Shown: positions 12,878 to 15,800 of the stretch, piece after piece
Layout: the number at the start of each line of letters is the position of its first letter
Numbering within the stretch: position 1 is the stretch's first letter
Origin: Haliotis cracherodii
Taxonomy: Eukaryota
DNA length: 64,000 nucleotides
Reading direction: 5' to 3'
Assembly (NCBI RefSeq): GCF_022045235.1
Contig: NW_027266275.1
Location: forward strand, 72,292,001-72,356,000
Position numbers and translations under genes: made by a program
Notes under the pieces: model-generated
Databases searched by the model: none
Seen by the model: only the letters and a program-made list of their open reading frames with translations
Told to the model about the DNA's origin: nothing

Positions 12878-15800
12878 ACGCCATCAACCCATTCATATGA
12901 TCTTGGGTTCGAATCCCACTTGCTCTGACTGTGTTCTAGGTTTGTCGGTATAATATTCACGTGCTTCTGGAATTCAACAAAGCATTATAATTCCTATACC
13001 TGCATCACTTTGAGCTTTCCTAAAATAGTAAGTTGAAACGCCTTATAACGGAGATATTGTTCCAAGGTGCGTTAAACCCAACTCACTCACTCACTCATTT
13101 AACACCAACCTGTCCGTAGTGGGCCATGTTAGCAGAGGCCGAGCCGAAGTCGTACATCACGAACTGGTCGCCGTTGACCTCCTGGGGAGTAACCATAGCA
13201 ACTTAGTCATTGATCCTTTGTGAATCCGATATTGACATTTTTAGACAATTGCATCTGTGACATTGTATGCTACCAGTGATGTATGAACGTCAACAATAAT
13301 CGTTTCTATAGCAGCTTCTTCCTAAATGCTGCTAAAAATTAATTGCCCTTTTATTCAACAATAATGCATTTGAAACTGATAGTACTTATCTTCTTTACTT
13401 AAGGTGATAGAACGATCACAGATTTTTTCACACATCAGCCATGGTAATAAAAGGATTCTTGACTAATGATAGTTCTGGAAAGACAAAGTGTACCGCCTGC
13501 CTGTCCAAAGTGTACAACCCACCTGTCCAAAGTGTACCACCTACCTGTCCAAAGTGTACCACCTACCTGTCCAAAGTGTACCACCCACCTGTCCAAAGTG
13601 TACCACCTACCTGTCCTTAGTGTACCACCTACCTGTCCAAGGTGTACCACCTACCTGTCCAAGGTGTACGACCTACCTGTCCAAGGTGTACCACCTACTT
13701 GTCCAAGGTGTACGACCTACCTGTCCAAGGTGTACGACCTACCTGTCCCTAGTGTACCACCTACCTGTCCAAGGTGTACCACCTACCTGTCCAAGGTGTA
13801 CGACCTACCTAGTCAAAGTGTACCACCTACCTGTCCAAGGTGTACCACCTACCTGTCCAAGGTGTACCACCTACCTAGTCAAAGTGTACCACCTACCTGT
13901 CCAAAGTGTACCACCTACCTGTCCAAGGTGTACTTCCTACCTGTCCAAAGTGTACCACCTACCTGTCCAAGGTGTACTTCCTAACTGTCCAAAGTGTGCC
14001 ACCTACCTGTCCAAAGTGGATCATGTTCTGCACAGAGGTGCCCGAGGGTGTATGGGCCACGTACACGGGGACGCGAGTCTGAAACACAACCAAGGCCGGA
14101 AAGTCAAACAGGCATAACAGTGCCATCTTCTCGAGGCAAGGGTGTTAACTGACTATAAACGTCAAATTTCCACTGGACTTTTAAAGTCAGTCGACGCCCT
14201 TGCCTCGGGAAGATGTAACAGTGCTCCCAGTAGCAGTATGTAGGTACATTTGCACGGTAGCCTGTTAGGTAGTGCTTCGCTTGTCACTTCGAAGAAGACC
14301 CGTGAAGATTCCGGTCTCCAGCAACCAATACTTGCCGTAAAAGGTGACTTTGCTTGTCGTAAAAGGCGACTAACGGGATCGGGTGGTCAGGCTCGCTGAC
14401 TTGGTTGATGCATGTCATTGATCCCAATTGGGTGGATCGATGCTCATGATATCAATCACTGGATTGTCTGGTCGCGACTCGATTATTTACAGACCGCCGT
14501 CATATAGCTGGAATATTGTTGAGCGCGGCGTTAAACAACAAACCAACCAACCAACTCTTCGAAGAAGCGGGTCGATTCTCATAAAGGGAACAAAATGCCA
14601 ATCCTTGGTTACCATTGATACTGCTGGAATACTTCTGAAAACTGTAAAATCGTTCTATCCCACTTATTATGGCTTCATAATTGTGTGCATGTGTCTACTG
14701 GAAACCAGCTGACGTACCTTGTTCACCGTCGCGTAGTCGAAGCCGCTGATGACAAAGAAGAAGTCCTCACAGAGGAGGGGTAGACCCTTGCAGACATCCT
14801 TCGCGAGCCACTTTGTCAAGTTGGTGCTGGGCTCAAACTCGCCGTGGCCGAACAGATCAAACAGCTGCAACATGGTGAATATACTGACGGAAACAAATAA
14901 GGGAACACACAGGAGCTTGGAGAAAAGTTTACGTCGGCAATCCATATTATAAACCTCACACGTCACACAAATGCATACCCCTAGATTTCGGGGACCGTGT
15001 GGATAGTTTGGGTCATATCACACCCAAAATATATCTGGCTTTTCCGTGGACGTTTTAAATTTTGGTGAAACAAACGAGCAAGGGTCTGGTATTAACAGAC
15101 CACGGGTCATAATCGCGTCAAACCCGGGATCCTGGCTGCCAAGGGACGCGAATCTGCACCGAAATCCGAATCCTATGCCAATATAACAATGGCACGTTAA
15201 TGTAATATCTTATAGGTAGATGCGTTCATTCAGGATTACCTTCAATCCTTTAGAAAATGGCGCCAGAAGTCTGAGAGGACTCTTGATGTGTCCGACGGTC
15301 GCCACGGGGGCCAGGGCGATGAAGGTCTTGACCAGCTGACCCAGAGTCTTGTTCTGGCTGAAGCCCGCGAAGCCGATGAGTGTCCCCTGAGAGTGTCCGA
15401 CATAGTGGACCTGGGGCTGCCCGGTCGTCTGTACGATGTAGTCAATCATGGCGGGCAGGTCGTACTTCGCCATCTCGTCGAAACTGAAATACCCGGAGAG
15501 AAATATAAATGTTCCTGATTATTGTTCTTGATATGGTCGTTCCAAACTGGGACAGCTATACATAAAACTACACGTGAAGACTTTATTGGGGAGAGTTTTG
15601 GCTTCACCACATGCTATGGTGTATATATATACCTCCATTCCCAGAACTTCCTGTCCGATGGTTTCAGCGTCTTGTGAGAACGTGAGTAAGTGTTGCCGCG
15701 CACGTTCCCCAGCCACACGTCTGCGCCGGCGTCGGCCAGGATGAAAGCGAGGCTCTCGTTGGCCGGGTTGAGAACGAAGTTGTTCGAACTTCCTAGTAGG

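What the first reader, a model, noticed from the sequence alone, without database searches (positions are those of the whole stretch)
13484..14078. Minisatellite made from the gene's own 5' splice site (lipase 2 exon 6 donor repeated about 24 times)
Seen: the 22-bp unit is the last 12 nt of exon 6 plus the first 10 nt of the intron (CACTTTGGACAG|GTAGGTGGTA), creating an array of near-identical donors. The copy next to the true donor has lost its GT (CAG|TTAGG), the second would frameshift, and an in-frame TAG follows, so every alternative donor is non-productive. Known: this 72-nt exon corresponds to human LIPA exon 8, whose donor mutation c.894G>A causes exon skipping in cholesteryl ester storage disease. 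Inference: copy number could tune productive splicing by competing for U1 snRNP.
Basis: partly seen in the sequence, partly recalled or inferred. Interest (0 to 1): 0.7.

Follow-up and report, generated by a model that had tools for sequence, protein, structure and literature searches.

The report
Repeated splice donor in lipase intron
The end of one exon of an intact acid-lipase gene, with its splice signal, is copied 23 more times into the next intron, but the assembled transcripts found splice at the first, real signal, so this is likely a harmless repeat of a kind already known from human and lancelet genes.

Summary
A 22-bp unit, the last 12 nt of exon 6 plus the first 10 nt of intron 6 of a minus-strand acid-lipase gene, is repeated 24.3 times (13484-14018); 21 of 23 intronic copies keep GT. 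The unit occurs only here in the 1.18-Gb genome. Use of any extra donor would truncate the protein before its Asp and His motifs.

The tuning idea is not supported. The in-frame TAG follows automatically from a 22-bp unit containing GTAG. GT loss in copy 1 is not enriched, and all 7 homology-verified exon-anchored arrays elsewhere in this genome keep GT there.

The class is published: human F7, CBS, IFI6, lamin B2, PDGF, and amphioxus 'mirages'. In F7, deleting copies did not change splicing. This scan noted the same kind before (32 notes, at least 18 genomes; 15 notes fit in this genome). Minor extra: a neighbouring paralog carries an unrelated 23-bp array at the same donor.

The parts
13484..14018 (-). 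22-bp minisatellite, 24.3 copies; the first unit spans the exon 6/intron 6 boundary; fills 523 of the 825 nt of intron 6
14007..14078 (-). Coding exon 6 (72 nt, phase 0/0), counterpart of human LIPA exon 8
   Evidence: joint 14078-14718 in 4 of 4 RNA-like runs
14005..14006 (-). True donor GT (CAG|GTAGGT), used by the main contig of runs X12 and X16
   Evidence: loose end at 14006 reads exon 7
13983..13984 (-). Copy-1 donor position, GT lost (CAG|TT); the same letters stand in a DNA run of the same organism from a 2019 study, which the tool flags as a possible source of this DNA
   Evidence: X5 record 20, 0 differences over 13949-14104
13961..13962 (-). Copy-2 donor, first intact extra donor; +44 nt, frameshift, stop 47 nt before the last junction
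13959..13961 (-). First in-frame TAG on read-through (the TAG of copy 2's GTAG); truncates products of copies 3-23 at 317 aa
13499..13500 (-). Copy-23 donor position, GT changed to GC (distal end copy)
13484..13490 (-). Terminal 7-nt partial unit, identical to the first 7 nt of the array (14018-14012); possible seed of the first duplication (inferred)
13110..13181 (-). Coding exon 7 (72 nt), joined to exon 6 in the RNA-like contigs
12378..17469 (-). Host gene: intact 8-exon acid lipase of the LIPA/gastric-lipase family, 401 aa; GHSQG Ser179, DFLAD Asp349, HLDF His378
21950..23033 (-). Related but separate: 23-bp (46-bp higher-order) donor-spanning array at the same exon's donor (23027) in the upstream paralog; 46 intronic copies, copies 1-8 all weaker than the true donor

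Best explanation
The array is a tandem amplification of this gene's own exon 6/intron 6 boundary, the assembled transcripts splice at the first donor, and the repeat is likely a tolerated, near-neutral slippage product rather than a regulator. Shown: unit identity, uniqueness to this locus, an intact spliced gene, dominant use of the true donor in contigs, and non-productive products from every extra donor. Inferred: it began as a 22-bp duplication between two 7-nt direct repeats and grew by slippage or unequal exchange, with the end copies escaping homogenisation and collecting private changes such as the two GT losses. Also inferred, from human F7: the spliceosome takes the most upstream usable donor after the exon, so downstream copies are ignored whatever their number. 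Any leak would give truncated, catalytically dead protein, and most of it would be NMD substrate.
For: Unit equals exon end plus intron start and is found nowhere else (best other DNA matches are 64-77% identity). Array begins and ends on the same 7-mer; variants shared between copies 1/3, 6/9 and 19/22 show internal duplications. Exon 5-6 joint in 4 of 4 RNA-like runs with a 73-letter side; exit into exon 7 at 14006 read directly in X12 (depth 196.6) and X16 (39.8), with 0 of 6 laid contigs joining an array copy to exon 7. GT loss not enriched: 2 of 17 variants, 1.55 expected. Copy 1 keeps GT in 7 of 7 homology-verified and 7 of 7 by-eye exon-anchored arrays elsewhere in the genome. Triple-donor patterns are common: 241, 1158 and 1448 matches against 109, 342 and 370 for reversed controls. 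Published: F7 pseudo-sites do not compete; amphioxus mirages do not disturb splicing and cluster ends escape homogenisation (PMC3087553).
Against: All runs were assembled contigs, which drop rare forms, and their RNA status is the tool's guess. Only the first 3.5 units were laid. Array-only fragments are present in both RNA-like runs (depth 2.6-4.7 in X12, 8.3 in X16), so some array-containing RNA or DNA exists. CBS and IFI6 do use two proximal pseudo-sites. The F7 rule comes from mammalian cells and was not tested in this animal. In the neighbouring paralog the first 8 copies are all weakened while 18 of the next 38 are strong, which could mean selection against near decoys. The genome survey was chosen for three perfect donors in a row, which biases it towards intact GT.
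Confidence: 0.8

Rival explanations
1. Tolerated only after repair: near decoys are mildly harmful, and selection fixed changes that silence the copies closest to the true donor (TT in copy 1 here; eight weakened copies in the paralog).
For: Copy 1 lost GT here and the same letters stand in DNA run X5. In the paralog at 23027 copies 1-8 are all weaker than the true donor; in the paralog at 30912 copies 1 and 2 read TT. [quoted passage not shown]
Against: Variants in paralog copies 1-7 are not significantly concentrated on the donor core (6 of 13, binomial p 0.17, and not independent). The distal end copy also lost GT. 14 of 14 exon-anchored arrays elsewhere keep GT in copy 1, against 19 of 25 arrays not called exon-anchored. 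In relative C, 13 of 13 DNA contigs laid over 13984 read G, yet its main RNA-like contig uses the same true donor; copy 1 of C itself could not be read, so this is only a hint.
Confidence: 0.12
2. One reading: copy number is a dial. More copies bind more U1 snRNP, divert splicing to non-productive donors or cause skipping, and lower lipase output.
For: Of 23 intronic copies, 13 have the same U1-pairing energy as the true donor, which is the strongest of the gene's 7 donors. Every extra donor is non-productive, so any leak lowers output. Array-only fragments occur in RNA-like runs. CBS uses two pseudo-sites, and a paper title links its VNTR to reduced activity (reference list only). Repeat length associates with splicing at many human loci (PMC10078293, abstract start and passages).
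Against: No contig with an extended or skipped exon 6 among those listed (many rows were not shown). One unbroken 397-nt contig in X12 carries exons 5 and 6 with flanking exon sequence. In F7, removing monomers did not change splicing and only perfect-consensus copies drew any use. Length variation of this array was not shown.
Confidence: 0.06
3. A dispersed minisatellite or mobile element landed here and happens to resemble or supply the donor.
For: The genome holds many arrays with donor-like 9-mers, and 25 of 39 surveyed had no exon called at their 5' end.
Against: The first 12 nt of the unit encode the conserved exon end (HFGQ), shared with the paralogs. The unit pattern occurs only at this locus.
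Confidence: 0.02

Closest known systems
Human F7 intron 7 37-bp VNTR (Borensztajn et al. 2006, PMC1557585; read: abstract, synopsis, introduction, and passages of results and discussion)
   Same: First unit spans the exon/intron boundary; identical GT donors reiterated in the intron; the most upstream donor is the one used.
   Different: 22 bp x 24 here against 37 bp x 5-9; 12 nt of exon in the unit against 4; copy 1 is dead here; length polymorphism is shown for F7, not here.
Human CBS intron 13 31-bp VNTR and IFI6 (6-16) intron 2 minisatellite (described in the introduction of PMC1557585; CBS nomenclature in PMC2630376 passages; the primary papers were not read)
   Same: Similar copy numbers (15-20 and 25 pseudo-sites); by title only, the CBS second repeat carries a substitution that blocks alternative splicing, like copy 1 here.
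   Different: Both use two proximal pseudo-sites as well as the true one; no such use was seen here, in contigs only.
Amphioxus 'mirage' minisatellites (Adh3, globins BflGb6 and BflGb9; PMC3087553, passages of the abstract and section 16)
   Same: Invertebrate tandem duplications of exon-intron boundaries, many keeping splice signals, reported not to disturb splicing, with end copies excluded from homogenisation.
   Different: Another animal (abalone according to unchecked scan notes); allelic and somatic length instability is shown for mirages, untested here.
Human LIPA exon 8 / E8SJM c.894G>A (PMC11678757, passages)
   Same: Homologous 72-nt, 24-aa exon ending at the same Gln; skipping is in frame in both (377 aa here).
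   Different: E8SJM weakens the donor and causes skipping; here the donor is intact, the strongest in the gene, and no skipping was seen. The link is a coincidence of position, not a shared mechanism.

Membership tests
Donor-reiterating minisatellite (F7/CBS type; amphioxus 'mirage') | Head-to-tail array whose first unit spans a real exon-intron boundary | tested here: met
   boundary confirmed by spliced contigs
Donor-reiterating minisatellite (F7/CBS type; amphioxus 'mirage') | Intronic copies keep the splice signal | tested here: met
   21 of 23 keep GT; 13 of 23 have the same U1-pairing energy as the true donor
Donor-reiterating minisatellite (F7/CBS type; amphioxus 'mirage') | Unit derived locally from the host gene, not a dispersed family | tested here: met
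   11 of 11 genome matches lie in this array
Donor-reiterating minisatellite (F7/CBS type; amphioxus 'mirage') | Copy next to the exon is the main donor | tested here: met
   Main contig in X12 and X16; 73-letter side in 4 of 4 runs. Dominant form only.
Donor-reiterating minisatellite (F7/CBS type; amphioxus 'mirage') | Length polymorphism (VNTR) | not testable with these tools
Splicing-regulatory VNTR (CBS-like, spl-TR) | Measurable use of extra donors or exon skipping | tested here: inconclusive
   None among 6 contigs laid, but contigs drop rare forms
Splicing-regulatory VNTR (CBS-like, spl-TR) | Splicing or expression varies with copy number | not testable with these tools
   Needs matched genotype and RNA per individual
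Acid lipase family (LIPA / gastric lipase) | Abhydro_lipase and alpha/beta-hydrolase domains; Ser, Asp and His motifs in an intact frame | tested here: met
   PF04083 in exon 2 (E 4.9e-14) and PF00561 in exon 4 (2 of 4 pieces matched); last exon matches 6v7n_A at 1e-16; 401 aa, no internal stop. Catalytic role of the motifs is recalled, not tested.

The most novel reading that the evidence does not exclude
The homologous exon-6 donor seeded two unrelated minisatellites in neighbouring lipase paralogs (22 bp here, 23/46 bp at 23027), and in both the copies nearest the exon were disabled by selection while far copies stayed strong. That would be an evolutionary footprint of a distance limit on donor competition, and would make array length or copy-1 state a natural modifier of lipase expression in this animal.
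Probability: 0.1. Interest if true: 0.45.

Novelty: new member of a known kind. Interest (0 to 1): 0.13.

Why it matters
As a single locus it matters little: it repeats a pattern published for five human genes and for amphioxus, and seen often in this genome. Its value is as one of many natural test cases. A genome with, by extrapolation, hundreds of arrays of near-perfect donors allows a test of whether the 'first donor wins' rule from mammalian F7 minigenes holds in an invertebrate, and of whether near copies are selectively weakened. The paralog pair here would be a convenient minigene system for that test. Such arrays can also mislead gene prediction and short-read junction mapping.

Tried and rejected
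1. Dispersed repeat family: rejected.
2. In-frame TAG as a selected safeguard: rejected; it follows from GTAG in a 22-bp period, and the array-free paralog at 8152 also meets a stop within 37 nt of read-through.
3. Copy-1 GT loss as a general rule: not found. I fetched 38 regions. TRF and a donor filter gave 42 arrays and one more (L070) was added by hand. Dropped: L059 and L066 (no first donor called), L071_2948 (part of another array), L073 (mis-registered), leaving 39. Of these, 7 have a homology-verified exon (6 by Pfam among 53 frames scanned; 1 by PDB), 7 look like exons by eye (L089 had 0 PDB hits) and 25 were not called. Copy 1 keeps GT in 7 of 7, 7 of 7 and 19 of 25. The sample was picked for three perfect donors, so it is biased.
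4. Donor-core enrichment of variants in the paralog's first copies: p 0.17, not significant.
5. My first gene model was wrong at exon 3 (start 15828) and exon 8 (start 12652); corrected to 15834 from RNA joints and 12605.
6. My automatic acceptor finder missed clear exons, so homology was used instead.
7. No holder on record as RNA and no raw reads were listed; copy number and rare isoforms could not be read. Copy 1 of relative C could not be read because the exon-anchored contig ends at 13990.
8. A hotspot at this exon: two independent arrays at one of seven donors is weak evidence; the paralogs at 8152 and on contig C23 have no donor array.
9. Literature: the primary CBS paper is not held. 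One six-term search with mollusc, minisatellite and splice terms listed 4 papers, none on this locus by title or abstract start; that is one search, not proof of absence. No supplements were read.

Full report
What is there. Tandem Repeats Finder places a 22-bp array of 24.3 copies at 13484-14018. Read on the minus strand, its first unit is the last 12 nt of a 72-nt exon (14078-14007) and the first 10 nt of the following intron. There are 23 intronic copies, filling 523 of the intron's 825 nt. Twenty-one keep GT; copy 1 reads TT and copy 23 reads GC. Thirteen of the 23 have the same computed U1-pairing energy as the true donor, which is the strongest of the gene's seven donors (the U1 motif used is recalled). 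A 27-letter pattern of the unit matches 11 times in the 1.18-Gb genome, all inside this array, with no control match. A DNA search found only 64-77% matches elsewhere. The array is therefore built from this gene's own boundary.

The host gene. Eight coding exons between 17469 and 12378 give 401 aa without an internal stop. Exon 2 matches Pfam Abhydro_lipase and exon 4 Abhydrolase_1; two other pieces had no Pfam match. Exon 6 and the last exon match lysosomal acid lipase 6v7n and gastric lipases. Four paralogs lie in tandem in the window and a fifth on contig C23.

What the extra donors would give. Copy 2 adds 44 nt, shifts the frame and stops at 324 aa, 47 nt before the last junction. Copies 3-23 stop at 317 aa. 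Skipping exon 6 is in frame (377 aa). All extended products lack the Asp349 and His378 motifs (their catalytic role is recalled). The stop needs no special explanation: the donor itself contains GTAG, and with a period of 22 its TAG falls in frame at copies 2, 5, 8 and so on.

What RNA shows. All four show the exon 5-6 and exon 3-4 joints with intron ends CT..AC; the exon 2-3 and exon 4-5 joints are listed for three of four. The gene is therefore transcribed and spliced. The exon 5-6 joint has a 73-letter side in all four, which is exon 6 plus one shared base. On the short stretch 13940-14110, the main contigs of X12 (same organism, depth 196.6) and X16 (relative C, 39.8) leave at 14006 and continue with exon 7 letters. 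The other four contigs laid (three in X12, depth 2.6-4.7; one in X16, 8.3) are array-only pieces with 5-11 differences, joined to neither exon. In DNA runs the summed depth over the same copies is about 80 times the unique depth (2011 against 24; 1295 against 15.6), so these pieces would fit about 1% or less of unspliced RNA or stray DNA; this is a rough inference from a measure the tool calls poor. Limits: contigs drop rare forms, NMD would deplete leak products, only 3.5 units were laid, and 257 joints and 1816 loose ends were not shown.

What DNA runs show. X5, same organism and a 2019 study, matches 13949-14104 with no difference, including the TT; the tool warns it may be this DNA's source. 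X10, relative C, has 59 contigs laid, most of them on the repeat part, so the array is likely shared. All 13 that cover 13984 read G there, but the exon-anchored contig ends at 13990, so copy 1 of C was not read. Copy number was not measurable.

Is copy 1 special? Of 17 distinct variants in the array, 2 hit +1/+2, against 1.55 expected by length, and they lie in the two end copies. PMC3087553 reports that end copies of such arrays are excluded from homogenisation. To test generality I searched the genome for three donor 9-mers in a row: 241, 1158 and 1448 matches against 109, 342 and 370 for reversed controls (matches, not arrays). The listed rows show 9 distinct arrays on contig C1 for this finding's own motif and at least 11 for a second motif; C1 is 7.5% of the genome, which suggests hundreds overall (extrapolation). 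Of 39 arrays tallied from 38 regions, 7 begin at an exon verified by homology (carboxypeptidase regulatory domain, Zc3h12a RNase, C2H2 finger, Asp/Asn hydroxylase, Ubiq_cyt_C_chap, JMY, goose-type lysozyme), 7 at likely exons by eye, and 25 were not called. Copy 1 keeps GT in 7 of 7, 7 of 7 and 19 of 25. Loss of GT next to the true donor is not needed for such an array to persist, though the sample is biased towards intact donors.

The paralogs. The paralog at 23027 has its own array at the same exon's donor: 46 intronic copies of a 23-bp unit, sharing only the exon end and GT with the 22-bp unit. Copies 1-8 are all weaker than the true donor; 18 of the next 38 are strong. Its recent duplicate at 30912 has a short form with TT in copies 1 and 2. 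This is the one hint of selection, but variants in copies 1-7 are not significantly concentrated on the donor core (6 of 13, p 0.17), and the strong copies come from one amplified dimer. The paralogs at 8152 and on C23 have no donor array.

How it most likely works. Origin (inferred): the array begins and ends on the same 7-mer, which fits the short-direct-repeat model for minisatellite birth cited in PMC2820488 (one passage); shared variant blocks show later internal duplications. Splicing (shown for the dominant form, inferred for the cause): the first donor is used. [quoted passage not shown] Fate of leak products (inferred): dead protein, mostly NMD. I put 0.80 on a tolerated near-neutral repeat, 0.12 on selected silencing of near copies, 0.06 on copy-number tuning and 0.02 on a foreign repeat.

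Known kin. PMC1557585 lists F7, CBS, IFI6, lamin B2 and PDGF; CBS and IFI6 use two proximal pseudo-sites, the others none. PMC3087553 describes amphioxus 'mirages'; I was led to it by earlier scan notes. Those notes, unchecked AI text, list 32 similar findings in at least 18 genomes, and 15 notes fit in this genome, which they call abalone. The finding meets every testable defining feature of the class and shows no tested feature of a regulatory VNTR.

Verdict. Real, correctly described, and ordinary: a new member of a known kind. Interest 0.13.

Noticed in passing
window 21950-23033 (-): Independent 23-bp (46-bp dimer) donor-spanning array at the same exon's donor in the upstream lipase paralog; 46 intronic copies, the first 8 all weakened, later ones alternating weak and strong.
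   Followed up: partly
window 30478-30912 (-): Short form of that array in the recent duplicate paralog: copies 1 and 2 read TT, then about 200 nt of unrelated, probably inserted sequence, then four strong donor-like sites.
   Followed up: partly
window 6928-32973 (-): Four tandem acid-lipase paralogs; exon 4 is 92-96% identical in protein across them while exons 5-7 are far more diverged, which suggests patchy gene conversion.
   Followed up: no
window about 23890 and 32090 (-): By homology, exon 4 of the two upstream paralogs appears to end at a GC donor (AAG|GC) where lipase 2 has AAG|GT (print); not checked in RNA.
   Followed up: no
window 15770-16478 and 15828/15834: Run X13 shows a second joint from exon 2 to 15770 with non-canonical ends, possibly from a paralog; exon 3 uses the upstream AG at 15834, not the one 6 nt further in.
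   Followed up: no
window 7976-8134 (-): The downstream paralog has two small arrays (20 bp x 3.4, 22 bp x 2.5) in the same intron, not spanning the donor.
   Followed up: no
window 4470-4919: 30-bp x 15 minisatellite, 98% matches, outside the lipase exons found; no donor motif noted.
   Followed up: no
L004 469-2660 (G000:C45): 41-bp x 56 array that appears to reiterate a splice acceptor in front of a coding exon; the acceptor-side mirror of this finding.
   Followed up: no
L071 1363-1711 and 2260-3096 (G000:C2): A Zc3h12a-like RNase exon with a 44-bp x 8 donor array of 100% identity, followed by a decayed copy of the exon end with its own 22-bp x 39 array.
   Followed up: partly
L068 7351-7617 (G000:C10): Goose-type lysozyme exon whose end and donor are repeated 7 times in 39-bp in-frame units; an in-frame unit is a better candidate for productive alternative donors than the lipase array.
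   Followed up: partly
window about 14110-14215 and 14297-14560: A short inverted-repeat element and a high-copy dispersed repeat in intron 5; both draw very deep off-target cover in RNA-like runs.
   Followed up: no
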